Source: a virus
Virus genome (UHGV): UHGV-0159558
Direction: 5' to 3' (one strand)
Length of the DNA stretch: 39,313 bases
Positions 123-37,526 of this stretch are shown piece by piece; position 1 is the first letter of the stretch, and each line of letters begins with the position of its first letter. Under the pieces are notes generated by a model. That model did no database searches, had not been told where the DNA came from, and saw nothing but the letters and a program-made list of their open reading frames with translations. Both the position numbers and the translations under genes were made by a program.

Positions 123-293
123 CTACAATGGGTAATCCATTAATTTTTTACTTGCTGACTTATATGTCAAACAAGTTTGGAAGTAAAATACTATTTTTCC
201 AGTTTCTTTGAAGCCGCATTCTTTAAGCTCTTTGCAACTTCCTTTTAACTCTTTTATAAACTCTTTTTTACTGTAAATTTTTGTTATTTTCAT
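123..293 (-). CDS. small hypothetical protein, 56 aa, below the ORF-track cutoff
   Basis: Minus-strand ATG at 293 follows GAGGGTGAGGAT. The ORF is MKITKIYSKKEFIKELKGSCKELKECGFKETGKIVFYFQTCLTYKSASKKLMDYPL and stops with TAG just before the RBS of the next gene. Confidence 0.4.
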   Translation of the reverse strand: MKITKIYSKKEFIKELKGSCKELKECGFKETGKIVFYFQTCLTYKSASKKLMDYPL

Positions 294-456
294 ATCCTCA
301 CCCTCTTTTTTAATTTCTTATAGCAATTCTAAAAGGTTTTAAAACTGTTATAAGAAATTAATTTTTAACGTTGTAAAAATTTAAAAAGTCACGTCTAGGA
401 TTTTCAACCTACTCTTTTTAGTGGAGCTTACCACCATCGCTGAGCCTTGCTGGTAT

Positions 457-1022: not shown

Positions 1023-1126
1023 TTTTAATCCTCCTAAGTTTTTAACTTACTTTATAAGATAAGTTATTATTTAAAAAAAATTGTTTTAAAAGCTTGTATT
1101 TGCTTTTCTTGATTCGATTATATTAT

Positions 1127-1164
1127 CTAGTAAGATAATTGTCAAGAAAAAATTATCTTACTAG
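1127..1164. promoter_or_regulatory. perfect 14-bp inverted repeat CTAGTAAGATAATT-N10-AATTATCTTACTAG; operator candidate in a divergent promoter region
   Basis: Seen directly. Sits between the minus-strand gene 801-1022 and the plus-strand HTH regulator gene at 1253, a typical position for a repressor operator. Confidence 0.55.
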
Positions 1165-1252
1165 GTAAGAAAAAACTTTAAAAATTGTTTTAAATGTAGT
1201 AAAATCAAGGCATAAAAGCGGTTAAAAAATTTTAAAAAAAGGAGTGAAGAAA

Positions 1253-1558
1253 ATGAGAACAGGAATTTTATTAAAAAAATTTTGTGATGAAAAAAACGTT
1301 AAACAAAAAGAATTAGCAGAAGTTGCGGAAGTATCAGAACCTTCGATTAGTAGAGCTATTTCAGGAATTATTTTTTTAAAAAAGAAAAATATGGAATCAA
1401 TAATAAAATATTTAAGACTTTCAAAAGATGAAGAGATGGAATTGTGGAAAGCGTGGACACTTGACAGAGGAGAGACCAAAGCGGCGGCGTACTTTGAAAA
1501 ATTGGACAAAGAAAATAAGAAATTAAAAAAAATATTATCAGCGATAAAAGAACTGTAA
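1253..1558 (+). CDS. XRE-family helix-turn-helix transcriptional regulator (repressor-like)
   Basis: HTH signature KQKELAEVAEVSEPSISRAISG. GGAG RBS 8 nt before ATG 1253 (the ORF track starts at GTG 1244). Confidence 0.6.
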   Translation: MRTGILLKKFCDEKNVKQKELAEVAEVSEPSISRAISGIIFLKKKNMESIIKYLRLSKDEEMELWKAWTLDRGETKAAAYFEKLDKENKKLKKILSAIKEL

Positions 1559-2838: not shown

Positions 2839-2876
2839 ACTATAAAATAATATTTTTATAGTACTTTCAACTTGCA

Positions 2877-2907
2877 GAGGATAAAAAAATTTATCCTCTT
2901 TTTTTAT
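2877..2907 (+). terminator. intrinsic terminator (GAGGATAAA-AAAA-TTTATCCTC + T9)
   Basis: 9-bp perfect stem and a T-run after the AbrB-like ORF. Confidence 0.7.
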
Positions 2908-3059
2908 TGTCTAATTCTAATAAAAATATCTATCATTTATAGACATAAAAAAATAAAAGTTGAAATAAAATAAAAAAAATGGTATTAATGAATTAAGTTG
3001 TTTTATAAAGCAAGAATTAACTTTTAAAACAATTTAACGGTTAAAAAAAGGGTGATATA

Positions 3060-3284
3060 GTGGATAAAATAGACAAATTAAATCAAAAAATTTGTAAAAA
3101 AATAAAAAAAGAAATGAAAAAGAAAAACATCACACAAAAAAACATGGCTGATAAAATAGGAACGACAGCCCCTTATTTTTGTAGGTGCTTAAAGTCCTTG
3201 GAAGAGGGCAAAAGCATATTGACAGAAACAATTTTTAAAATTGCTGGAGCTTTAGAAATAGAGCCGGCGGAATTATTCAAATAA
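3060..3284 (+). CDS. Cro/CI-type (XRE) helix-turn-helix DNA-binding protein
   Basis: HTH signature ITQKNMADKIGTTAPYFCRCLKS...KSILTETIFKIAGALEIEPAELF. GTG start with AAGGGTG RBS. Confidence 0.55.
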   Translation: MDKIDKLNQKICKKIKKEMKKKNITQKNMADKIGTTAPYFCRCLKSLEEGKSILTETIFKIAGALEIEPAELFK

Positions 3285-3348
3285 TAACGCCCAAGGGCTT
3301 TATTATATATATAATAATCTCTCCTAGGTTATTTATATTAATTTTTCA

Positions 3349-3594
3349 CCAGCATTGCTGGGATTCCTACCCAAAATATTTTATTATATTTTTTCCCCTC
3401 ACACGAGGGGAAACCCCAATAATACTATTTTTTAGTAGTATTATTTAATAATACAATATATTATTTTGTATTACTTTTAAGTAATATATTTTAATGTGTG
3501 TAATACTTTAGGTATTAACGTAAATGTTAATATATATTTTCATATTTTAAACCTCACTAGTTTCTTATTTTATACCCCAGTTTCAAAGCTGGGG
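3349..3594. promoter_or_regulatory. cluster of perfect hairpins in a 780-bp non-coding region; candidate rolling-circle double-strand origin for the downstream Rep_trans gene
   Basis: Hairpins seen: CCAGCA-T-TGCTGG (3349-3361); CCCCTC-ACAC-GAGGGG (3395-3410); AATAATACTA-N8-TAGTATTATT (3418-3445); CCCCAG-TTTCAAAG-CTGGGG (3575-3594). GC-rich stems in AT-rich DNA. Confidence 0.45.
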
Positions 3595-3652
3595 TAAAAA
3601 TAAAAACAGGTAATAAAAATGTTTTTTTGTACCTTGAAATTCTAAACATTTT

Positions 3653-3747
3653 CGGATTTTCAAGGGTCAAAAAAACAATAAAATTACAACGGATTTGAAA
3701 CAAATATTTTCAAGAGTCGTTATTTTTAAAGGATTTTCAAGATTTCC
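3653..3747. repeat. iteron-like direct repeats of ATTTTCAAG (3656, 3706, 3733), with an inverted copy at 3642-3650 and a related GGATTTGAAAC at 3691
   Basis: Seen directly: CGGATTTTCAAGGGTC, ATATTTTCAAGAGTCG and GGATTTTCAAGATTTCC within 100 bp. Confidence 0.5.
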
Positions 3748-3821
3748 AAAAAACGACACTTGTCAAGTAAATATATAAGGGTACAACATTACTTTCAAAA
3801 AGTCAATAGAATTTTATATAT

Positions 3822-3839
3822 AAATTACAACTGAATAGA
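3822..3839 (+). promoter_or_regulatory. 18-mer AAATTACAACTGAATAGA, repeated at 9902-9919, each directly 5' of an intrinsic terminator
   Basis: Exact 18-nt identity at two loci. Chance is unlikely, but base composition is skewed. Confidence 0.4.
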
Positions 3840-3849
3840 AATTAGCAGC

Positions 3850-3877
3850 ACAAGGAATTTATAAGCCTTGTTTTTTT
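3850..3877 (+). terminator. intrinsic terminator (ACAAGG-N10-CCTTGT + T7)
   Basis: 6-bp stem plus T-run. Confidence 0.5.
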
Positions 3878-3924
3878 ATAACAATTTTTCAGACAACTAA
3901 ATATAAAACTGTATTTCTTGTTAG

Positions 3925-3955
3925 TCACATAAATTAAAAACTTGTGTGACTGATT
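3925..3955. promoter_or_regulatory. inverted repeat AGTCACA-N15-TGTGACT upstream of the Rep_trans gene
   Basis: Seen directly; 7-bp arms. Confidence 0.3.
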
Positions 3956-4069
3956 GGAAACACACGTAAATGATAAAAACAAGGAGGGTTTAAAATCGTT
4001 GACAATGGCACATTTATATATACAAGTCGTGACATAGATATCACGCAGGCGGCAGCAAATGCGCAGGCA

Positions 4070-5077
4070 TTGACTGGAATGTCTGGAACTGTAGAAAACA
4101 ATAAACTTGTATTTAAAAACTTCAATGTAGATAAATATGAGTTTATCAACTTTATCTCAATTTCAGAATACCGCAGTAATTGCCGTGTCTGTGTAGCTTT
4201 TAGTTACTCCAGATACGAGAATGAAGACAACTACAAATTAGCAGAGCGTCAAAGAACAATAAACGACGTTCATGCGGCAGTAGTTAGAATCTTTAGAAGT
4301 ATAACAGGGCTAGCCTTAACCAGTAACGACCTTGAAGTTCTGGCACTTGACATATCTAATCAACTTGAAGTTGAGAACATAAGAAACTATTATAATGTTC
4401 TTAATCTCATATATAGAGCATATAAACAGATAAACCCTAACGGGCGTTTGTACTTTGATACAGATAAGGAGCAGAGGCTAGAGCTTGACGGGCTAGACTT
4501 TAGAGAAGCTGGAAAGAAAAGGCGAGAGGCGAACGCATATTTTAAGATTTATAGCAAGAGAAAAGAGATTGAAGACACCAAGGGAGCGGCAAAAGCAAGA
4601 GGAAAGCGGCAGGCGTTACGTGGTGAACTCACTTTAAAGGGTGCAATGTTAAAAAAATATGACTTGCACATCGTGGGAAATATTCAAAAACTAGCACTTG
4701 AAAGAGTTTTAAAATGCGTGCTGGGAGAGATAATCCTTGACGGAATCAATAAAGAGCTTGAATTTAATAGATCTAAGCTTTTGCAAGAATACAAGCTCGC
4801 AGGTAGTAAGAAGTTGCAGGAAGTAACTTTAATGAATCTTCAATACATCTTTGATATTGATATTCTTGATGATGTGCTTACTTGTGAGAATTTTAATATC
4901 TCACGTAGTACGCTAGGTTATCACAAGAAAAATATAAAAGAGCTTTTAAAAGCAACAGAAACTAAAAGCGAGATAAAAAGAGTATTTTCAAAGAACTTTG
5001 AGAGACTAGCAAAGTTATTAAAAAAGATAGTCAAGGTTGATGTAAAAGTGGAGAAAGGGGCGATAAAATGGCAATAA
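4070..5077 (+). CDS. Rep_trans-family rolling-circle replication initiator (pT181 RepC/RepD-like)
   Basis: Motif ANAYFKIYSKRKEIED...LRGELTLKGAMLKKY aligns with the pT181 RepC active-site region ARIYNKKQERKD...WRVEIELKRDMVDYW (catalytic Tyr). HTH-like C-terminus. Start is uncertain: TTG 4070 or ATG 4079, with no strong RBS. Confidence 0.6.
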   Translation: MTGMSGTVENNKLVFKNFNVDKYEFINFISISEYRSNCRVCVAFSYSRYENEDNYKLAERQRTINDVHAAVVRIFRSITGLALTSNDLEVLALDISNQLEVENIRNYYNVLNLIYRAYKQINPNGRLYFDTDKEQRLELDGLDFREAGKKRREANAYFKIYSKRKEIEDTKGAAKARGKRQALRGELTLKGAMLKKYDLHIVGNIQKLALERVLKCVLGEIILDGINKELEFNRSKLLQEYKLAGSKKLQEVTLMNLQYIFDIDILDDVLTCENFNISRSTLGYHKKNIKELLKATETKSEIKRVFSKNFERLAKLLKKIVKVDVKVEKGAIKWQ

Positions 5078-5589
5078 GTAAAAAGAAAAAGCAAGCATTT
5101 GCACAAGCTTTTATGATTTGCAAGAATGGAAGAGAAGCCCTCGAAGCTGCGGGAATTGACTTTGATATTAAAACTATGCAGTCACTTTTATTAGATAAAG
5201 AGCTAGCAGAGTACATAGATAATAACCTTGCAACTGTTCAATATATGCTAGGTAGAGACAAGAGCGGACATCTTGCAAAGCTAGAAAAACTATTCGACCA
5301 AGCGGCAGGGTATGAAGATTCTAAGATAGTAAACTTTGACAAAGTAGGGAGATACACCGAAAAAATAGGAAAGTTTACAGATTTCAAAGCGGCGGCGGCA
5401 CTATCAAAAAGAATTGGAGAGCTTCAAGATTGGGAGACAACAGGGGGAGACAATGAAATTATTGTTGACCTTAAAATCGGCGATAACCTGTTCAAATCCG
5501 ATGAAGAGGCTATTGAAAAAGCTAACAGTGATAGTGTGGCACGTGATGAAAGGGTGCTTAATCATTTAAAATCAGAGGGGGTGTTGTAA
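5068..5589 (+). CDS. terS: terminase small subunit (Terminase_2/P27-like)
   Basis: N-terminus KKQAFAQAFMICKNGREALEAAGIDF...MQSLLLDKELAEYI resembles the SPP1-type TerS HTH region (KQEKFV.EY..LNATQAAIRAGYS...). GGGG RBS. Lies upstream of the portal gene. Confidence 0.55.
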   Translation: MAISKKKKQAFAQAFMICKNGREALEAAGIDFDIKTMQSLLLDKELAEYIDNNLATVQYMLGRDKSGHLAKLEKLFDQAAGYEDSKIVNFDKVGRYTEKIGKFTDFKAAAALSKRIGELQDWETTGGDNEIIVDLKIGDNLFKSDEEAIEKANSDSVARDERVLNHLKSEGVL

Positions 5590-24350: not shown

Positions 24351-24368
24351 TTTCGAGAGCTCTCGAAA
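24351..24368. promoter_or_regulatory. perfect 18-bp palindrome TTTCGAGAGCTCTCGAAA (copy 1 of a dispersed motif; candidate parS or operator)
   Basis: Seen directly. A second perfect copy is at 33761-33778; near-copies are at 38438-38455, 38864-38877 and 37549-37570. Confidence 0.5.
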
Positions 24369-24372
24369 AAAT

Positions 24373-24401
24373 TTGAAACTTCTAAGTAATAATGTTAATA
24401 T
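24373..24401 (+). promoter_or_regulatory. promoter-like element TTGAAA-17-TAATAT, part of the 24-mer AAAAATTTGAAACTTCTAAGTAAT that recurs at 36043
   Basis: -35 and -10 hexamers with a 17-nt spacer. The whole element is repeated with one mismatch 11.7 kb downstream. Confidence 0.45.
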
Positions 24402-24415
24402 AACCATAAGAAATA

Positions 24416-24490
24416 CAGGCAACTTAATAGGTTGCCTTTTTCCATTTTTATAAAATCCGAGAAAGCGACCTAGAGAGGTCGCTTTTTTAT
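24416..24490 (+). terminator. two tandem intrinsic terminators (AGGCAAC-TTAATAG-GTTGCCT + T5; AGCGACC-TAGAGAG-GTCGCT + T6)
   Basis: Two perfect-stem hairpins each followed by a T-run, between the promoter-like element and the terL gene. Confidence 0.65.
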
Positions 24491-24506
24491 TTAGTTAATA
24501 AAATAA

Positions 24507-26084
24507 ATGGAGGTGGTAAAGTTGGGGTTTGGATTATCTACTAGACAGGAACGTAGAAAAGTAACTGTATCCTATGAAAAGGTTATAAAGAAAATGCACC
24601 TAGGACAACAAGAAATGGTTCGTGAAGTCCTAAAAGGTGAGAAAAAATATTTCGCTCTTATGGCTCACCGTAGATATGGGAAAGACTTCTTAGCGTTAAT
24701 AGTCCTTATTCTATGTGCTGTTAAATATCCTGGAAACTACTATATCTTTGCACCATATTTTAGACAGGCTAAAGAGATTGTAGTTGACGGAAAAACGCTT
24801 GACGGAGTACCTATGATTGAAAATCTATTCCCTAGAGTGCTGCTAAAAAATCCGAAATCTCAATTCATAGTAAATAGGTCTGACTGGTCTATCACTCTTT
24901 ACAACAATTCAAAGATATTCATTCGTGGAGCAGACAACCCTAATAGTAACGTAGGGGTTGGAGCTAGAGGAATAATCTACACCGAGGCTGCTCTAATGAA
25001 ACCAGGATTCTACCAATATATGAAACCAGCTATCGACGCAGTAATTAATAAAACTGGTTTCGGAGTAGTAATCTTTATTTCTACTCCAAGGGGTAAAGAT
25101 AACTGGTTCACAAGACTATTTGTAGACTACTTTAAAAAGTTTGATAAACACCCAGAAATTAAAAAACTTTGGTATGTGGATATTCAAAGAGCAAGTGAAT
25201 CTAAAGCTTGGAATGGTAACCCTGTAATGAATATTGTAGAAAGAGAGAAACAAAAGGCTGAAATGTTACCAGAGATTTATGCACAAGAATATGAATGTGC
25301 ATTAAACACAAGTTGTATGGGAGCTTATTATACGGACCAAATAGCACAAGCTATAAAGGATAAAAGAATTGGTAGGTTTGGAAAATATGAAGAGACTTAC
25401 GATGAGTATGCAAATACTAAGCTTGAATATATGGGATACTATTTCAAACATGCCCCTTTATATGTATCTTGGGATATAGGAAAACGTGACCACACAGTTA
25501 TATGGTTTTTTCAAATAAACCCAAGTAATGGCAATATAAGGTTTATCCATCACTACAGAAATAAAGGCGTTGGAGCAGACCATTTTTGTGAGTATATTAA
25601 AAACTATGTAAAAGGTAAATACTTTGGTAGTGAACCTATAATGATATTACCTCACGATGGAGATGTAGAAGAATGGACATCAACCTCAAAAAGAAGTGAC
25701 TACATTAGAGAGTTCTTCTTTAGCGATGTAAGAGTACTATCAAAAACAGACTTAGCAGGAGCTAATATGGCTACCCTTATGGCACAGATAAACAAGATTA
25801 GATTCTTGTTTACAAGAGTAGAGATTGATTCCGAGGAGTGCAACATAGGGCTAGATAAACTTAGAAGCTATATTAAAAAGTATGATAAGAACAAACAGGA
25901 ATATGTAGATATTCCAGACCATGACGCTAATGATAAAGCCTCGGATGACGCAGATTCATTCAGAACAGCTATGATTTACTATGATTTGTATTTAAAAATT
26001 CAACCAGGATTTGAAAAATTTGAAAATACTGTATTTGATACAGGAGGAGCTATAACTTATGAAGATGAAGATTATTTCTTTTAA
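24507..26084 (+). CDS. terL: terminase large subunit
   Basis: Walker-A-like MAHRRYGKDF. An IIYTEAALM segment. RNaseH-like nuclease Asp motifs WDIGKRDH, ILPHDGDVEEW and DHDANDKASDD. ISTPRGKDNWF segment. Possible TTG start at 24522 after GGAGGTGG. Confidence 0.7.
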   Translation: MEVVKLGFGLSTRQERRKVTVSYEKVIKKMHLGQQEMVREVLKGEKKYFALMAHRRYGKDFLALIVLILCAVKYPGNYYIFAPYFRQAKEIVVDGKTLDGVPMIENLFPRVLLKNPKSQFIVNRSDWSITLYNNSKIFIRGADNPNSNVGVGARGIIYTEAALMKPGFYQYMKPAIDAVINKTGFGVVIFISTPRGKDNWFTRLFVDYFKKFDKHPEIKKLWYVDIQRASESKAWNGNPVMNIVEREKQKAEMLPEIYAQEYECALNTSCMGAYYTDQIAQAIKDKRIGRFGKYEETYDEYANTKLEYMGYYFKHAPLYVSWDIGKRDHTVIWFFQINPSNGNIRFIHHYRNKGVGADHFCEYIKNYVKGKYFGSEPIMILPHDGDVEEWTSTSKRSDYIREFFFSDVRVLSKTDLAGANMATLMAQINKIRFLFTRVEIDSEECNIGLDKLRSYIKKYDKNKQEYVDIPDHDANDKASDDADSFRTAMIYYDLYLKIQPGFEKFENTVFDTGGAITYEDEDYFF

Positions 26085-33921: not shown

Positions 33922-34435
33922 TTTCTACCCCCTGTATTAAAGTAAGTATATTAAGAAATTGTTTTTCAAAATGCTCTACAATCTCTTTTCTCTCTTTATC
34001 ATCAAAGCAAATATCAGGTATTTTACTAAGTTTTTCACTAGCTTTATAATACCAGTCTAAGTACTCTTTATAATACTTGCTGGCGTTTTCAAGCTTTAAC
34101 TCCTCTTGAATTTCAACATCTCTTTTTTGGAGTTTGTATATTAATTCTTGTCCACACTCAGGCAAAATATATTTTATCGGTTCTTCTCTTTTTTCTTGCA
34201 TAAGAAACCAATATTTATTTTTAAATTTTTCCATTAATCTTTCTTTTTCGTGAGGTTCAAAATATATATCTGGAATTGCTTTTAATTTTTTTAAAGCATA
34301 ATGATACCAGTCAAGCTGTTTTTCTAACTCTACATTGTCTTTTAATCTTGTTCCTGATAATTTCTCATGCTCTTCTTTTAGTAATTCCAATCTTTTTTTG
34401 TAGTTTATTTTCATTACTCCACCCCTTTTAAACAA
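33908..34435 (-). CDS. hypothetical protein with an internal tandem duplication (175 aa)
   Basis: Two ~40-aa repeats: QLDWYHYALKKLKAIPDIYFEPHEKERLMEKFKNKYW and YLDWYYKASEKLSKIPDICFDDKERKEIVEHFEKQF. GGGGTGGAG RBS. Confidence 0.45.
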   Translation of the reverse strand: MFKRGGVMKINYKKRLELLKEEHEKLSGTRLKDNVELEKQLDWYHYALKKLKAIPDIYFEPHEKERLMEKFKNKYWFLMQEKREEPIKYILPECGQELIYKLQKRDVEIQEELKLENASKYYKEYLDWYYKASEKLSKIPDICFDDKERKEIVEHFEKQFLNILTLIQGVENENN

Positions 34436-35331
34436 GCTCTTATAAAATTAATATACATAGTTTTATTATTTCTTTTCATAGTTTCAATAAAGCCTTTATC
34501 CATTCCATCAGATATTAATTTTTCAAGTCCTTTTTCTTCTTCCTCTGGTGTAAGGTCTTCAGGTTCTACAATTTTTATATCTTCAATTTCTTCTTTCTTT
34601 ACTTCTTTTTTAGGCTTTTTCTTTGGCTCTTCTTTTATTATTTCAGGTTCTTTTATATCCCAATGTAATATGACTTTATCAACTTCTTTTCCTGCTCTTT
34701 TTCTCTCCAGTTCTAAGTTTATTATATTAGTTTTTTCAAATTCTTTTTTAGTCACCCCTATAACCTTAGCTTCGACATCTGCCCATCTATATGATTCAGG
34801 AACATTTAATAAGTGCCTGAAAAACTCTCCTGAATATTCTTTCTTTTTTAGCCCTTTATAGCTCATCACAATTTGATATATTTTTTTAGCATATTTACCC
34901 TTTAGACTTGCAAATTCTAAAAGCTCATGTTGGGTAAAATTTCCAGTAAGATTAAAAAACAAATGAATATATTTCTTTTTAAGAACAAAAATAATCTTTT
35001 TATTATCTTTGCTGAAACATAGCTTATCAAATATATGTTCACAAACATTATACTCATCTTCCTCAAAGTAAATTTTAGTATCATAAATTTTCTCTAGTGA
35101 TTCTGTTAATCTCTTCATAGAAACATTACCTTGAAGTAATTTTTTTATAGCTTGTGAGGATAATTCTAATTCTAAATCTTTATCTACTGCCACATTCATG
35201 TGGTCGGTAACTTTTTTTCTTGCTGAGTAAGCTAAAGTTAATACTAAATCCATTTCATAAGCTGAATAATTATTCATAGAAGTAGCAAAATCTTTACTAT
35301 ACTCTACTATTGCATTTGATTCTTTTTCCAT
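34414..35331 (-). CDS. Rep_3-family theta-replication initiator (RepB-like)
   Basis: NNYSAYEMDLVLTLAYSARKK matches the Rep_3 N-terminal signature (N.L..A.Y.LSL.E.RL.L.L). The true start is ATG 35331 with a GGGG RBS. Iterons lie 270 bp upstream. Lys/Glu-rich C-terminus. Confidence 0.6.
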   Translation of the reverse strand: MEKESNAIVEYSKDFATSMNNYSAYEMDLVLTLAYSARKKVTDHMNVAVDKDLELELSSQAIKKLLQGNVSMKRLTESLEKIYDTKIYFEEDEYNVCEHIFDKLCFSKDNKKIIFVLKKKYIHLFFNLTGNFTQHELLEFASLKGKYAKKIYQIVMSYKGLKKKEYSGEFFRHLLNVPESYRWADVEAKVIGVTKKEFEKTNIINLELERKRAGKEVDKVILHWDIKEPEIIKEEPKKKPKKEVKKEEIEDIKIVEPEDLTPEEEEKGLEKLISDGMDKGFIETMKRNNKTMYINFIRACLKGVE

Positions 35332-35363
35332 TCTAACCCCTTTCTTTAAAATTGTAATCATAG

Positions 35364-35389
35364 TGTGAAAAAAATAATAAATTTTCACG
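35364..35389. promoter_or_regulatory. inverted repeat GTGAAAA-N12-TTTTCAC in the rep promoter region (autoregulation operator candidate)
   Basis: Seen directly. Related TTTTCACAC(TT) partial iterons are at 35447 and 35561. Confidence 0.35.
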
Positions 35390-35602
35390 CTTAATTAAAT
35401 ATACAATATTTTTTAAATAAAATCTACCCAAAAATTAGGTTTTTTTCACACTTTAAAGTACGACATTTTGTAACAAATGTTGGAATATAAATTTTAATTA
35501 TAAATAAGTAATAACCACATTTTATATTCAATGAGTGAAAAAAGCAACAATTTTTCACATTACATTATAAACATCTTTAATACTTTAGAAGTAAAAACAG
35601 TT

Positions 35603-35728
35603 CTGACAAAACGTCACACTTTGCTGACAAAACTTCACACTTCACTGACAAAACTTCACACTTCACTGACAAAACTTCACACTTTGCTGACAAAACGTCA
35701 CGGAAAACTGACAAAACTTCACTTTTAT
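35603..35728. repeat. iteron array: six contiguous 21-bp direct repeats (consensus CTGACAAAACTTCACACTTCA); origin of theta replication
   Basis: Units start at 35603, 35624, 35645, 35666, 35687 and 35708. The central copies are perfect; the outer ones degenerate. Head-to-tail with no spacers, so not a CRISPR array. Confidence 0.8.
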
Positions 35729-35894
35729 GTCGCTAAAGTCCTTGATTTTAGGGAAGTCTTGAGCCTCTTAAACTATATAAACTTATAAACTTATAAATAG
35801 GTAAAATTTTTTCACTTTATTTTTTAAATAATGTGACAAAATGGTACCCTATCACTTGAACTTCCCATCAAAATTTAATTTTTACATATTAAGT

Positions 35895-36026
35895 TTGACA
35901 CAATTTAATATGTATGGTATTATTAAAGTAGCTTTAAAGCCGTTTTATCCTCACAAGATAAAACAAACCCAAAAACCAAACTGTAATCAGAAAGCCTATC
36001 ACCCAATAGGCTTTCTTCTTTTTTTG
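35895..36026 (+). ncRNA. candidate small RNA: TTGACA-17-TATTAT promoter, ~95-nt transcript with two hairpins ending in an intrinsic terminator
   Basis: -35 at 35895-35900 and -10 at 35918-35923. Hairpin GTTTTATC-CTCACAA-GATAAAAC (35943-35965). Terminator GAAAGCCTAT-CACCCA-ATAGGCTTTC + T-run (35990-36026). No coding ORF with an RBS. Confidence 0.4.
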
Positions 36027-36042
36027 CTCTGCGTAAGTTTTA

Positions 36043-36065
36043 AAAAATTTGAAACTTCTAGGTAA
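36043..36065 (+). promoter_or_regulatory. second copy of the promoter-like 24-mer (AAAAATTTGAAACTTCTAGGTAAT)
   Basis: 23 of 24 positions identical to 24366-24391. Confidence 0.4.
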
Positions 36066-36220
36066 TTGTTATACTATTAATTAGAACCTGATTTTTTTAA
36101 TTTAATTTATTCATTACTACTACTTTGATTTTTAAACCCCTAATAAGATATTATCTGTATCTATAAAAATCATTAGGAGGTTAAAAGTAGTAAAAAGTTT
36201 TTAACCGTTATTTACAAAAC

Positions 36221-36269
36221 AAACCCCCACGCTTTTCCGTATTCCTTTAGTGTGGGGGTTTTGTTATTT
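36221..36269. terminator. hairpin AAACCCCCAC-N21-GTGGGGGTTT with T-rich flanks (terminator for minus-strand gene 36268-36822 and/or plus-strand transcripts)
   Basis: 10-bp perfect stem. T-rich on both sides. Confidence 0.5.
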
Positions 36270-36822
36270 ATGGTAACATCTTTTCTCTATCTTTCCAAAA
36301 TCCGACCCTATGTTTTTTAAAAGTAAACTTCAAAACAGCGTTTGTATGCTCTTCACGAGTAAGATTTTTAAATTTAACATCATCTACATAAACACTAAGT
36401 TTACTCATTTCATCATCAGAATATAGATGGTCTATTATTTCTAAAGATCTGTACCAACCTTTTTTTACTTTCATTCTTCCAGCAGTTCTGACCTCACAAG
36501 AAAATTCAGGACCATCAACACGAAACTTTCTACTACTTCCAACGTCGGACCAACCAATGGTTATTTCTGTGTTAGCTTGAATGTCTTTTATCTTATCTTC
36601 AAGCATTATTCTTGCTAGTTTTTCCTTATCCATAAAATCAGTAAGTTTAATTTTAGGGTATTTGTAAAGTCTTTTTCTCCATCCACCTCTTGGACTTTGG
36701 ATTGTTCTTTCTCTAGTGGTATAAAAATATTCTATTGCTCTTTGTCCATCTGTTACTTCATTTTCAGGGCTAATCCCTGCAAAATCTAAAAATAATAAAA
36801 AATCTTCTAATCTTTCAGCCAT
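36268..36822 (-). CDS. hypothetical protein (184 aa)
   Basis: AGGAGG RBS (TAAGGAGGAAGAAAATG). Confidence 0.45.
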   Translation of the reverse strand: MAERLEDFLLFLDFAGISPENEVTDGQRAIEYFYTTRERTIQSPRGGWRKRLYKYPKIKLTDFMDKEKLARIMLEDKIKDIQANTEITIGWSDVGSSRKFRVDGPEFSCEVRTAGRMKVKKGWYRSLEIIDHLYSDDEMSKLSVYVDDVKFKNLTREEHTNAVLKFTFKKHRVGFWKDREKMLP

Positions 36823-36905: not shown

Positions 36906-37526
36906 TTAACTTACTTTTTTACTATTCCATAATATTTGTCTAAGATTTTTAAGTTCTGACATAGTTGCAGTATCAGGGTCAATTTCTGTATCTTTACAAG
37001 CTTTTAATATCTCTTCATTTGAATGTTTAGACTTTAAAACATCAATAAATATTTTTCTGTCTTTAGGTGTAGGCATATCATCAGCTTTTAATTTATCTTC
37101 TGCCTCTTTCATTAGTTGCTCTGGTGATTTGAATTGTTCTAAATCTTCACCAGTGTATAGGCTTAGACCTATACCGAAAAGGGCTATATTTTTAACTAGA
37201 CAACGCATTATACTATCACTTATTTGTCTAGTGTTAGGCTCTGCGACTGCATTGTGGCGGTTATCCATTACAGGAAGAAACATTTTTTTAGTTTCTCCGA
37301 ACATTGTTACTGTAGTTTTTACCATGTGACAAGTTCCACGACTAAATAATGGGAATCCGTCGGCGTCTTCCAATACTTCAAATGTAAAGTTTGGGTCTTG
37401 CTCCATAGCTAACTTGTAGGCGTTAGCCCAGCTTATATAATTTAACCCTTTATAATCCTTTTCCACTTTACCGCTAAGGTCTAGCATATACATGCTATCA
37501 AACATTTCTTTTTTCATATTTTCCAC
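36906..37526 (-). CDS. single-strand annealing protein (Erf/Rad52-like recombinase)
   Basis: LNYISWANAYKLAMEQDPNFTFEV and the QISDSIMRCLVKNIALFGIGLSLY segment resemble the Erf/Rad52-type SSAP core (...SYA.K..L..LFGIG). GAGGTGG RBS. Confidence 0.45.
   Translation of the reverse strand: MENMKKEMFDSMYMLDLSGKVEKDYKGLNYISWANAYKLAMEQDPNFTFEVLEDADGFPLFSRGTCHMVKTTVTMFGETKKMFLPVMDNRHNAVAEPNTRQISDSIMRCLVKNIALFGIGLSLYTGEDLEQFKSPEQLMKEAEDKLKADDMPTPKDRKIFIDVLKSKHSNEEILKACKDTEIDPDTATMSELKNLRQILWNSKKVS

What the first reader, a model, noticed from the sequence alone, without database searches (positions are those of the whole stretch)
35895..36026. Candidate ~95-nt small RNA between the iteron origin and the recombination block
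There is a near-consensus promoter (TTGACA, 17 nt, TATTAT) and then a transcript with two perfect hairpins, the second a canonical terminator. No plausible coding ORF is present; the ORF-track entry 35841-36065 has no RBS. Its position next to the rep promoter and iterons suggests a copy-number control or antisense RNA, as in many plasmids.
Basis: inference. Interest (0 to 1): 0.55.

Follow-up and report, generated by a model that had tools for sequence, protein, structure and literature searches.

The report
Optional small-RNA gene beside plasmid origin
A roughly 95-nt non-coding RNA gene with its own strong promoter and terminator sits beside the replication origin of a complete 39-kb, probably Fusobacterium, phage-plasmid; it looks real and is conserved, but it is an optional insert found next to three different origin types, so it is more likely a trans-acting regulatory RNA than the plasmid's copy-number controller.

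Summary
On the + strand there is TTGACA (35895), a 17-nt spacer, TGgTATTAT (35915-35923), a perfect 8-bp hairpin (35942-35964, loop CUCACAA), a 24-nt A/C-rich single strand, and an 11-bp terminator hairpin with U7 (35989-36025). The fold has z = -6.6. No Rfam family matches, and no coding frame survives in relatives.

The copy-number interpretation is not supported. The RNA lies about 600 nt from the rep start, beyond the iterons, and is transcribed away from rep. The same RNA (three substitutions, one loop inversion and one T-run indel across six haplotypes) sits beside three iteron types, with Rep proteins 52-100% identical. Relatives with the same iteron type lack the whole ~170-nt cassette (35856-36025); their flanks are joined directly.

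It therefore fits the description of a phage "moron": an insert with its own promoter and terminator, here encoding an sRNA. The RNA body varies about three times less than its flanks.

Best reading (about 0.45): a trans-acting, kissing-loop base-pairing RNA expressed from the plasmid-prophage, target unknown. No target inside the element reached significance.

Rivals are a Sib/Ibs-like antitoxin (a 22-aa hydrophobic ORF lies antisense), a guard against early-operon read-through, origin activation by transcription, and no expression. Covariation could not be tested. This is a new member of a known kind, of moderate interest.

The parts
35856..36025 (+). The whole sRNA cassette: a present/absent insert relative to cassette-less relatives
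   Evidence: In L021, L022 and L274-L280 the flanks (box ...GGTACCYTAT and GCTCTRCGTAAG...) are joined with only about 6 A between them. L036 also gave no cassette match. The other relatives carry this ~170-nt block at 94-100% identity.
35870..35884 (+). A/T tract AAAATTTAATTTTTA at -60 to -46, an UP-element-like sequence (inference)
   Evidence: Read directly from the sequence. Invariant in five haplotypes and changed at its last two bases in L028.
35883..35914 (.). Imperfect palindrome TACATATTAAgtt TGACAc aatTTAATATGTA centred on the -35: a possible operator, weakly supported
   Evidence: Unique in the window (1 match, 0.04 expected). In L028 the outer arms change asymmetrically while the inner arms become a perfect palindrome.
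35895..35923 (+). Promoter: -35 TTGACA, 17-nt spacer, extended -10 TGgTATTAT
   Evidence: 11/12 with TG. (with TG: 1 found, 0.08 expected). The hexamers and TG are invariant in six haplotypes.
35930..36025 (+). Predicted ~95-nt transcript
   Evidence: The start is inferred from the position of the -10 and the end from the U-tract. Fold z = -6.6. No experimental ends are available.
35931..35940 (+). 3-bp 5' mini-stem GCU/AGC
   Evidence: The two substitutions in L028 (C35932U, C35940U) turn C-G and G-C pairs into U-G and G-U pairs; both are one-sided changes.
35942..35964 (+). Hairpin 1: 8 perfect pairs and the 7-nt loop CUCACAA (35950-35956), which starts with a YUNR (CUCA) U-turn motif and holds an anti-SD-like CUC
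   Evidence: Invariant in all six haplotypes. The YUNR reading rests on established knowledge of antisense-RNA recognition loops.
35965..35988 (+). Unpaired A/C-rich linker AAACCCAAAAACCAAACUGUAAUC, a candidate seed region
   Evidence: Unpaired in both the MFE and centroid structures. One substitution among the haplotypes (C35981G in L027).
35989..36025 (+). Intrinsic terminator: 11-bp stem, 6-nt loop, UCUUUUUUU
   Evidence: The stem is invariant. The loop is replaced by its reverse complement in the L006 type. The T-run is 6 instead of 7 in the L014 type. On the minus strand no U-tract follows directly, so it works in one direction only.
35934..36002 (-). Antisense 22-codon ORF, GTG start, MIGFLITVWFLGLFYLVRIKRL (belongs to the rival reading only)
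   Evidence: No SD and no minus-strand promoter. The GTG sits in the terminator loop and is lost in the L006-type inversion. No toxin family hit.
35834..35852 (.). Left flank of the slot: box TGACAAAATGGTACCCTAT (iteron-like)
   Evidence: The same box is the tandem iteron in L020 and is present in one or two copies beside every origin type.
36026..36270 (+). Right flank of the slot: a second, core small transcription unit (promoter TTGAAA-17-TACTAT at 36049-36077, three hairpins, terminator shared with the 184-aa gene)
   Evidence: (z = -4.1). About 80% identical in relatives that lack the cassette. The terminator shows compensatory changes.

Best explanation
The region is an independent gene for a ~95-nt non-coding RNA. 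It is carried on a ~170-nt optional cassette inserted between the origin-proximal box and a conserved neighbouring unit of a circular ~39-kb phage-plasmid. In phage terms it is a 'moron' whose cargo is an sRNA rather than a protein.

Proposed mechanism (inferred):
- A very strong sigma-70-type promoter (consensus -35, 17-nt spacer, extended -10, upstream A/T tract) makes the RNA abundantly while the element is carried as a plasmid-prophage.
- The terminator hairpin and the 5' mini-stem stabilise the RNA.
- The 7-nt U-turn loop of hairpin 1 (CUCACAA) and the unpaired A/C-rich linker are the parts that meet a target RNA.
- The RNA acts in trans by short base pairing on a phage or host mRNA, most simply by covering a ribosome-binding site.
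- It does not set the copy number of the replicon.

Shown here: the anatomy, the absence of a coding frame, the cassette presence/absence pattern, the independence from replicon type, and the stronger conservation of the RNA body than of its flanks.

Inferred: expression, action in trans, and base pairing as the mode of action. The target is unknown.
For: - Anatomy and fold statistics.
- No Rfam family and no tRNA or tmRNA.
- No conserved frame.
- Cassette absent, with flanks joined, in L021, L022 and L274-L280; L036 also gave no cassette match. It is present at 94-100% identity in backbones whose Sak is 60-99% identical and, where rep or the iterons were recovered, whose Rep family is 52-100% identical.
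- Three iteron types lie next to the same RNA.
- Variable alignment columns: 16 of 69 upstream, 4 of 35 in the promoter outside the hexamers, about 10 of 76 downstream. In the 95-nt RNA there are only three substitutions, one loop inversion and one T-run indel, with none in hairpin 1.
- Every change in the RNA is neutral for the structure.
- The loop starts with YUNR, the motif typical of natural antisense RNA recognition loops (established knowledge).
- Candidate targets exist. One is a shared early-gene RBS module, GAGGGUGAGGAUAUG (window ORF 293..123 on the minus strand, and several relatives), which pairs over 9 nt with UAUCCUCAC, from the SD through the A of AUG. The other is a 10-nt site centred on the loop in the convergent 184/186-aa gene (36492-36501).
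Against: - There are no expression data.
- There is no covariation: 22 pairs, 0 compensatory, because only six near-identical haplotypes exist.
- No target is statistically supported. The best whole-window duplex is -35.5 kcal/mol, against -31.0 +/- 2.3 for the best duplex of each of 31 shuffled sRNAs (most extreme -36.3). The best TIR duplex has p = 0.15. The number of 10-mer complements matches expectation.
- The RBS module is absent from the early operons of cassette-bearing L014, L018, L006 and L027, and present in cassette-less L036.
- The site in the 184-aa gene is absent from the 173-aa and 140-aa neighbour classes.
- The low variation in the RNA body could reflect a recent recombinational spread of the block rather than selection.
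- The perfect 8-bp stem is unusual for kissing-loop antisense RNAs, which usually carry bulges.
Confidence: 0.45

Rival explanations
1. Antitoxin of a type I toxin-antitoxin (addiction) module with full overlap, like Sib/Ibs. The minus strand opposite the RNA would encode a 22-aa hydrophobic peptide with a basic tail (MIGFLITVWFLGLFYLVRIKRL, 36002..35934). The abundant sRNA would pair with that mRNA and block it, so cells that lose the phage-plasmid would be killed.
For: - The ORF exists and has a toxin-like composition.
- The only two substitutions inside it are conservative (V8L in L027) or synonymous (CGG to CGA in L028).
- The same intergenic slot in relative L020 carries two clear toxin-like modules, each with a promoter, a long 5' UTR, a strong SD and a 29-aa hydrophobic peptide ending in KK. 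One of them hits Ldr_toxin PF13940 at E = 8.5e-5, which is below the family cut-off.
- A strong constitutive promoter and a YUNR loop are typical of such antitoxins.
Against: - No minus-strand promoter between 36003 and 36270, and no SD before the GTG.
- The GTG lies in the loop of the terminator hairpin and is destroyed by the loop inversion in the widespread L006-type lineage, seen in at least two studies.
- The hydrophobic composition follows automatically from reading the complement of an A/C-rich linker.
- No toxin family hit.
- No minus-strand terminator follows the ORF.
Confidence: 0.12
2. A cis-antisense guard, comparable to lambda oop. Transcripts of the minus-strand early operon that escape the terminator at 36265-36205 would run through this region into the iterons and rep. 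The sRNA is perfectly complementary to such read-through RNA. It would trigger cleavage of that RNA, or collide with the polymerase, and so keep origin and rep expression separate from lytic transcription.
For: - The RNA is convergent with the early operon and lies between that operon's end and the origin.
- The window is a closed circle with one early promoter feeding this operon.
- The terminator hairpin of the sRNA has no U-tract on the minus strand, so read-through RNA would not stop there.
Against: - A GC-rich terminator with a U-rich tail already ends the early operon 180 nt before the sRNA.
- Relatives without the cassette manage with the same layout.
- The RNA does not overlap any coding sequence, unlike oop with cII.
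- Nothing in the data shows that read-through occurs.
Confidence: 0.12
3. Replicon copy-number or incompatibility RNA. The RNA would pair with the rep mRNA or otherwise limit initiation at the iteron origin.
For: - It lies close to the iterons and the AT-rich region.
- It has the hairpin-plus-YUNR-loop architecture and the strong promoter seen in countertranscripts.
- A 13-nt identity, TTATCCTCACAAG, occurs inside rep (35151-35163).
Against: - The RNA does not overlap rep or its leader and is transcribed away from them.
- The 13-mer in rep is in the same sense as the rep mRNA, so the two RNAs cannot pair there. It is also absent from the L014 rep.
- The cassette occurs with three iteron types and is missing from relatives that share iteron type C.
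- Rep3/iteron replicons are known to be controlled by Rep autoregulation and iteron handcuffing (established knowledge).
Confidence: 0.06
4. The act of transcription matters and the RNA is a by-product. A strong promoter firing away from the AT-rich unwinding region, 70-120 bp behind it, would feed negative supercoils into the origin and help it open, as gidA transcription does at oriC and pR transcription does at lambda ori.
For: - The position and orientation relative to the AT-rich repeats (35775-35830) and the box.
- The very strong promoter and the very short transcript.
- The cassette is dispensable, which fits a modulator.
Against: The transcribed body is the best conserved part: no change in hairpin 1 and one in the linker, while the promoter surroundings vary. 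That is the opposite of what is expected if only promoter activity counted.
Confidence: 0.07
5. No function. The promoter match is a chance one in front of an orphan hairpin, or it is a decaying remnant, and it is conserved only because the block spread recently.
For: - Matches of at least 11/12 occur at the chance rate in this AT-rich DNA.
- There are only six near-identical haplotypes and no covariation.
- An IS3-like element has inserted into the terminator in L003 and L005, so loss of the RNA is tolerated.
Against: - The promoter with its TG is rare by chance (0.08 expected).
- The promoter, TG, both hairpins and the U-tract are intact in all six haplotypes, on backbones that differ by up to 40% in Sak and 48% in Rep.
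- The flanks vary about three times more than the RNA.
Confidence: 0.1

Closest known systems
Prophage- and island-borne trans-acting sRNAs carried as moron-like inserts, for example DicF of the Qin prophage and IsrK of Gifsy-1 (PMC4825925). The moron concept is from Hendrix and colleagues (own knowledge).
   Same: It is a small non-coding gene with its own promoter and intrinsic terminator, inserted between sequences that are adjacent in related phages. Its distribution is patchy. It is expected to be expressed from the resident prophage and to act by short base pairing.
   Different: No sequence or Rfam relation to any of them. The host is probably Fusobacterium, which lacks Hfq, ProQ and CsrA (PMC11039985). 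It sits on an extrachromosomal phage-plasmid directly beside the origin. Expression and target are unknown.
Plasmid copy-control countertranscripts (RNAI of ColE1, CopA of R1, RNAIII of pIP501, ctRNAs of the pMV158 family)
   Same: Size of about 60-110 nt, a strong constitutive promoter, a 5' stem-loop with a YUNR loop, a single-stranded spacer, a terminator hairpin, and a position near the replication region.
   Different: It is not encoded opposite the rep leader or a primer. It is separable from the replicon and does not co-vary with it. The replicon is of the Rep3/iteron type, which does not use such RNAs.
Sib/Ibs and other type I toxin-antitoxin loci (par of pAD1, Ldr/Rdl)
   Same: An abundant sRNA lies fully opposite a very short hydrophobic ORF, on a plasmid-like element. 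Relative L020 carries type-I-toxin-like modules in the same slot.
   Different: The putative toxin has no promoter, no SD and no terminator. Its start is lost in one common lineage. No family model matches it.
Lambda oop RNA, and the P1 c4 and P4 CI immunity RNAs
   Same: These are short phage RNAs near the replication or immunity genes, convergent with or acting on an early operon. P1 is also a phage-plasmid.
   Different: oop overlaps the 3' end of cII, whereas this RNA overlaps no gene. c4 and CI are processed from the leader of the operon they control and have defined complementary sites there, whereas this RNA has its own promoter and no significant complementary site.

Membership tests
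Plasmid copy-control countertranscript | Encoded on the strand opposite the rep mRNA leader (or the replication primer), so that it is fully complementary to its target | tested here: not met
   The rep start is at 35334 on the minus strand. The RNA spans 35930-36025 on the plus strand, beyond the iterons. No minus-strand promoter lies to its right within the intergenic region.
Plasmid copy-control countertranscript | Inherited together with the replicon and specific for it (an incompatibility determinant) | tested here: not met
   The same RNA is found with iteron types A, B and C, and with Rep proteins 52-100% identical. It is absent from L021 and L274-L280, whose origins and flanks are intact; L036 also gave no cassette match.
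Plasmid copy-control countertranscript | Stem-loop with a 5-8-nt recognition loop carrying YUNR, and a strong constitutive promoter | tested here: met
   Loop CUCACAA with CUCA at its 5' side, and a promoter matching 11/12 with TG. This feature is shared with many other antisense RNAs and is not specific.
Plasmid copy-control countertranscript | Loss of the RNA raises copy number | not testable with these tools
   This needs qPCR of a promoter mutant.
Type I toxin-antitoxin (Sib/Ibs-like) | A short hydrophobic ORF overlapped by the sRNA | tested here: met
   A 22-aa ORF at 36002..35934 on the minus strand. The composition is partly forced by the A/C-rich sense strand.
Type I toxin-antitoxin (Sib/Ibs-like) | The toxin mRNA has its own promoter, an SD and a terminator | tested here: not met
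   No promoter-like site on the minus strand at 36003-36270, no GGAG-type SD before the GTG, and no U-tract terminator after 35934.
Type I toxin-antitoxin (Sib/Ibs-like) | The toxin ORF is kept intact among relatives | tested here: inconclusive
   One conservative and one synonymous change, but the start codon is removed by the loop inversion in the L006 type.
Type I toxin-antitoxin (Sib/Ibs-like) | The peptide matches a known toxin family | tested here: not met
   No Pfam or NCBIfam hit at E up to 10.
Phage moron | Extra DNA between sequences that are adjacent in related phages | tested here: met
   Window 35856-36025 against about 6 nt in L021, L022 and L274-L280, with both flanks aligned.
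Phage moron | Flanked by its own promoter and factor-independent terminator | tested here: met
   These are sequence predictions only.
Phage moron | Expressed from the repressed prophage | not testable with these tools
   No transcriptome is available. The promoter does not carry the TAGTAAGATAAT repeats seen at the early promoter near 1145.
Any Rfam family | Score at or above the family's gathering threshold | tested here: not met
   No match at gathering thresholds in the whole window. The best weak match over the RNA is Phe_leader at 17.4 bits against a threshold of 55.
RNA anti-CRISPR (solitary repeat unit) | Hairpin 1 resembles the repeat of a CRISPR array | tested here: not met
   The genome scan with GTTTTATC-N7-GATAAAAC returned only single palindromic sites, with no arrays and none in Fusobacterium.
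Lambda oop-type cis-antisense RNA | Overlaps the 3' end of the convergent gene | tested here: not met
   The stop of the 184-aa gene is at 36268, which is 243 nt from the end of the sRNA. A terminator and a second transcription unit lie between them.

The most novel reading that the evidence does not exclude
The cassette is a horizontally exchanged 'sRNA moron' that moves between diverged Fusobacterium phage-plasmid backbones by recombination through conserved flanks. It gives its carrier a trans-acting riboregulator in a host that has no Hfq, ProQ or CsrA. The RNA would either reprogram a host mRNA (lysogenic conversion by RNA) or act as a free-standing antidote or anti-addiction RNA against type I toxins of competing elements that use the same slot.
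Probability: 0.2. Interest if true: 0.6.

Novelty: new member of a known kind. Interest (0 to 1): 0.35.

Why it matters
If the RNA is expressed, it would be a compact, self-contained riboregulator from an uncultured family of Fusobacterium-type phage-plasmids. sRNA biology in these bacteria works without the usual chaperones (PMC11039985).

Natural relatives with and without the cassette, on the same origin type, would serve as a ready-made comparison for finding out what the RNA does.

The work also shows that the gap between the early operon and the origin is a slot where small accessory modules accumulate: this sRNA, type-I-toxin-like cassettes and an IS element. That is useful for annotating phage-plasmids.

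The analysis also guards against a common error: an sRNA next to iterons is not by default a copy-number controller.

Tried and rejected
- **Rfam:** gathering thresholds on the whole window and E up to 10 on 35300-36400 gave nothing beyond chance terminator-like matches.
- **tRNA/tmRNA:** none found.
- **DNA similarity to GenBank phages and PLSDB plasmids:** no match.
- **Rep-based locus search in IMG/VR:** none found.
- **Cassette variants wanted for covariation:**
  - Exact-pattern scans of IMG/VR, the JGI/ENA metagenomes and GTDB genomes gave only L001, L223, L235 and L258. Most of the 111 metagenome matches were chance.
  - The result is six haplotypes and no compensatory pair.
- **CRISPR-repeat or Racr idea:** no arrays found.
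- **Target search inside the element:**
  - A sliding duplex search found a 53-nt imperfect duplex with the 184-aa mRNA at -35.5 kcal/mol. This is within the shuffle range and is not conserved in the 173-aa and 140-aa neighbour classes.
  - The 13-mer shared with rep is in the same sense as the rep mRNA.
  - The 11-mer in the early-operon terminator is not conserved.
  - The TIR-wide duplex scan gave p = 0.15.
  - There is no complementarity to the L020 toxin mRNAs.
- **Operator idea:** the palindrome at the -35 occurs nowhere else in the window and is only partly kept in L028.
- **Function of the 184-aa neighbour:** no hit in Pfam, PHROGs, NCBIfam or PADLOC. The AlphaFold model had pLDDT 39.9 and was not searched further.
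- **Attenuator or leader idea:** rejected, because no plus-strand ORF follows the terminator and no alternative pairing with the terminator arm exists.
Full report
**Observation**

On the plus strand there is TTGACA at 35895-35900, a 17-nt spacer and TATTAT at 35918-35923 (11 of 12 matches). An extended -10 TG at 35915-35916 precedes the hexamer, and an A/T tract lies at -60 to -46.

Taking 35930 as the start, the RNA folds as follows:
- a 3-bp 5' mini-stem
- a perfect 8-bp hairpin at 35942-35964 with the 7-nt loop CUCACAA
- a 24-nt unpaired A/C-rich linker at 35965-35988
- an 11-bp terminator hairpin at 35989-36016, followed by UCUUUUUUU

The energy is -21.8 kcal/mol against -7.1 +/- 2.2 for shuffles (z = -6.6). 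The terminator works in one direction only, because on the minus strand no U-tract follows it directly.

A promoter match of at least 11/12 is not rare by itself in this AT-rich DNA: two were found and 2.25 are expected. With the TG it is rare: one found and 0.08 expected. It also sits 60 nt upstream of one of about a dozen strong terminators in the window.

**Not coding, and not a known RNA**

Rfam gives nothing at gathering thresholds, and only chance-level matches appear at E up to 10. There is no tRNA or tmRNA.

The ORF 35841-36065 has no SD. Its ATG is AAG in the L001 and L014 haplotypes and in L008, L016 and L018. A 1-nt indel in the T-run and a 2-nt indel near 36042 break the frame. The internal ATG at 35910 lies in the promoter spacer, upstream of the predicted start site.

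**Context**

The window is a complete circular element of 39,313 bp. A minus-strand ORF reads across the junction between its end and its start.

The element carries these parts:
- Virion genes lie on the plus strand.
- The replication and partition block is on the minus strand: a Rep3-family initiator (34414-35334, Pfam Rep3_N and Rep3_C), a 175-aa ORF, ParA and a ParB-like protein.
- Six 21-bp iterons lie at 35603-35725, next to an AT-rich repeat region.
- A minus-strand early operon starts at a perfect consensus promoter near 1145. It runs through a Sak single-strand annealing protein (36906-37526) and a 184-aa protein of unknown function (36268-36822), and ends at a GC-rich terminator at 36265-36205.

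The host is probably Fusobacterium. Sak homologues at 63-66% identity are named from F. necrophorum, F. polymorphum and Fusobacterium sp.. The portal protein's best phage match is a Fusobacterium phage. G+C is about 30%.

**Relatives**

GenBank phages and PLSDB plasmids hold no DNA match. Pattern scans and exact-protein look-ups recovered a family of roughly 37-39-kb metagenomic contigs. They share the order repressor, early operon, Sak, variable gene, long intergenic region, iterons, Rep3, ParA.

The RNA region occurs in six haplotypes only. Two results from these relatives decide the interpretation.

First, the same RNA sits beside three different origins:
- iteron type A, CTGACAAAACKTCACAC (window, L015, L006)
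- iteron type B, CTGACAAGACTTCCCTTTTCC (L014, L001)
- iteron type C, GTTACAAAGTGTCGTAGTGTTT (L016, L027, L028)

The Rep proteins of these families are 90% identical (window against L014) and 52% identical (window against the type-C Rep seen in L021). The Sak proteins of the carriers range from 60 to 99% identity.

Second, relatives with type-C iterons (L021, L022) lack the whole block. So do L274-L280, which have the same layout at the slot, and L036 gave no cassette match either. In the aligned cases, window 35856-36025 is replaced by about six A residues. The left flank (box TGACAAAAWGGTACCYTAT) and the right flank (GCTCTRCGTAAG..., about 80% identical for 190 nt) are retained and joined.

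The unit is therefore a discrete, optional cassette of about 170 nt with its own promoter and terminator. That is the definition of a phage moron, here with an sRNA as cargo.

**Against copy-number control**

- The RNA does not overlap rep or its leader.
- It lies on the far side of the iterons and points away from them.
- No minus-strand promoter to its right within the intergenic region could send a rep transcript through it.
- It is separable from the replicon and does not vary with it.
- The 13-nt identity with rep (35151-35163) is in the same sense as the rep mRNA, so those two RNAs cannot pair. It is also missing from the L014 rep.
- Rep3/iteron replicons are controlled by Rep autoregulation and handcuffing (established knowledge).

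**Is the RNA itself under constraint?**

Among the six haplotypes, variable alignment columns number as follows:
- 16 of 69 upstream
- 4 of 35 in the promoter region, all outside the hexamers and the TG
- about 10 of 76 downstream

In the 95-nt RNA there are only five events:
- two C-to-U changes in the 5' mini-stem, which turn a G-C and a C-G pair into G-U and U-G
- one change in the unpaired linker
- replacement of the terminator loop by its reverse complement (L006 type)
- one T fewer in the U-tract

Hairpin 1 is invariant. The RNA body thus varies about three times less than its flanks, and every change is neutral for the structure. This argues that the RNA sequence matters and not only the act of transcription.

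The sample is small, however, and recombinational spread of the block could mimic selection. No compensatory pair exists, so covariation cannot be tested.

**Mechanism**

The architecture is that of a classical base-pairing RNA: a strong promoter, a 5' stem-loop whose 7-nt loop begins with YUNR (CUCA), an unpaired spacer and a terminator hairpin. I therefore commit to a trans-acting antisense RNA made from the resident plasmid-prophage.

I searched for its target inside the element and found only leads:
- A ribosome-binding module, TTAAAAAAGAGGGTGAGGATATG, is shared by several different early genes (window ORF 293..123; also in L008, L015-L017, L029-L031, L036 and L223). It pairs over 9 nt with UAUCCUCAC, from the SD through the A of AUG. 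It is missing from the early operons of cassette-bearing L014, L018, L006 and L027, and it is present in cassette-less L036.
- A 10-nt site centred on the loop lies in the convergent 184/186-aa gene (36492-36501), with a 53-nt imperfect duplex of -35.5 kcal/mol. It is absent from the 173-aa and 140-aa neighbour classes.
- Neither lead exceeds shuffled controls. The best duplexes of 31 shuffled sRNAs averaged -31.0 +/- 2.3 kcal/mol, the most extreme being -36.3. The TIR scan gave p = 0.15.

The target may well be a host mRNA, which I could not test.

**Rivals**

*Type I toxin-antitoxin.* A 22-codon hydrophobic ORF with a basic tail lies exactly antisense (36002..35934). The same slot in L020 holds two toxin-like modules, one with a sub-threshold Ldr_toxin hit. 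However:
- The window ORF has no promoter, SD or terminator.
- Its GTG sits in the terminator loop and is lost in the L006 lineage.
- Its composition follows from the A/C-rich sense strand.
- No family model matches it.

*Guard against read-through from the early operon (oop-like).* The geometry allows this, but an efficient-looking terminator lies in between, and cassette-less relatives have the same layout.

*Origin activation by divergent transcription.* This fits the position but not the conservation pattern.

*Chance or decay.* This fits the lack of covariation and the IS3-like insertion into the terminator in L003 and L005. It does not fit the intact promoter, hairpins and U-tract on backbones that have diverged by up to 40-48% in neighbouring proteins.

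*A solitary CRISPR-repeat-like decoy.* I looked for this and found no support.

**Comparison with known systems**

The RNA works most like a prophage-borne trans sRNA carried as a moron. It shares architecture with plasmid countertranscripts and with type I antitoxins, but it fails their defining tests (see the membership table). It belongs to no Rfam family.

I rate it a new member of a known kind. It is of moderate interest because fusobacteria lack Hfq, ProQ and CsrA (PMC11039985), and because natural relatives with and without the cassette would allow a direct experimental comparison.

Noticed in passing
window 36026-36270 (+): A second small transcription unit lies directly downstream. 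It has a promoter TTGAAA-17-TACTAT (36049-36077) and an RNA of about 185 nt with three hairpins, including CCCCUAAU...AUUAGGAGG and GGUUAAAAG...UUUUUAACC. It ends at the terminator shared with the 184-aa gene. It contains AGGAGG but no start codon. Unlike the sRNA cassette, it is present at about 80% identity in every relative examined here (the L003 and L021 groups, L274-L280), and its terminator shows compensatory changes.
   Followed up: partly
window 24366-24492 (+): The promoter block of that second unit (AAAAATTTGAAACTTCTARGTAAT...) recurs here at 79% identity over 47 nt. It is followed by two strong hairpin terminators (24417-24437 and 24459-24488; fold z = -7.2) just before the gene at 24507. 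This may be another short RNA or a regulated leader using the same promoter type.
   Followed up: partly
L020 4780-6270 (minus strand of the locus, the same sense as the sRNA): In this relative the 2.2-kb gap between Sak and Rep carries two type-I-toxin-like modules. Each has a promoter, a ~120-nt 5' UTR, a strong SD and a 29-aa hydrophobic peptide ending in KK (MNIYIGSVTFEGSLIILVIAILIVLHGKK and MEFLLELLLQVVSSILASIICNWINKRKK). The second hits Ldr_toxin PF13940 at E = 8.5e-5, below the family cut-off. The slot therefore collects small accessory modules.
   Followed up: partly
L003 about 5088-5229 and L005 about 4719-4750: In these two loci, homology to the window restarts exactly inside the 3' arm of the sRNA terminator (GCTTTCTTCTTTTTTTG). 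L004 matches only further downstream (window 36167-36229). In L003, the sequence read, the DNA before that point ends an ORF reading ...NRSPIEYRKFKEKNVDN*, followed by ...TTGACAGGGTGCAGATCACA. This looks like the end of an IS3-family element inserted into the terminator.
   Followed up: no
window 36000-36005; L006-L012 and L223: The terminator loop CACCCA is replaced by its exact reverse complement TGGGTG in one lineage seen in at least two studies. This is a hairpin-loop flip, probably by template switching. It keeps the stem and removes the GTG of the antisense ORF.
   Followed up: partly
window 35834-35852; L020 6560-6660; L021, L027 and others: The box TGACAAAAWGGTACCYTAT is present in one or two copies beside every origin type. 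In L020 it is the tandem iteron itself (four direct copies plus one inverted copy). It is either a remnant of exchanged Rep/iteron modules or the site of a second conserved DNA-binding protein.
   Followed up: partly
window 291-315 (-); L008, L015-L017, L029-L031, L036, L223: An identical ribosome-binding module, TTAAAAAAGAGGGTGAGGATATG, precedes unrelated early genes of 56, 67 and 147 aa in different relatives. It looks like a shared junction sequence for gene shuffling in the early operon.
   Followed up: partly
window 1100-1260: A perfect consensus promoter (TTGACA-17-TATAAT, minus strand, 1145-1117) is flanked by the inverted repeats TAGTAAGATAAT and ATTATCTTACTA. A 104-aa ORF at 1244-1558 diverges from it; relatives carry an HTH_3 repressor gene at the equivalent position. 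This is the likely lysis-lysogeny switch. Its repeats differ from the palindrome at the sRNA promoter.
   Followed up: no
window 2840-4000: A 1.2-kb stretch of about 25% G+C has no ORF longer than 75 aa. It contains many short GC-rich hairpins (for example ccctcacacgagggg and accccagtttcaaagctggggt) upstream of the first virion genes. It may be a packaging site or hold more small RNAs.
   Followed up: no
window 1 and 39313: A minus-strand ORF (MTLREKED...KKAGIL) reads without interruption from the start of the window into its end. The window is therefore a complete circular genome cut at an arbitrary point.
   Followed up: yes
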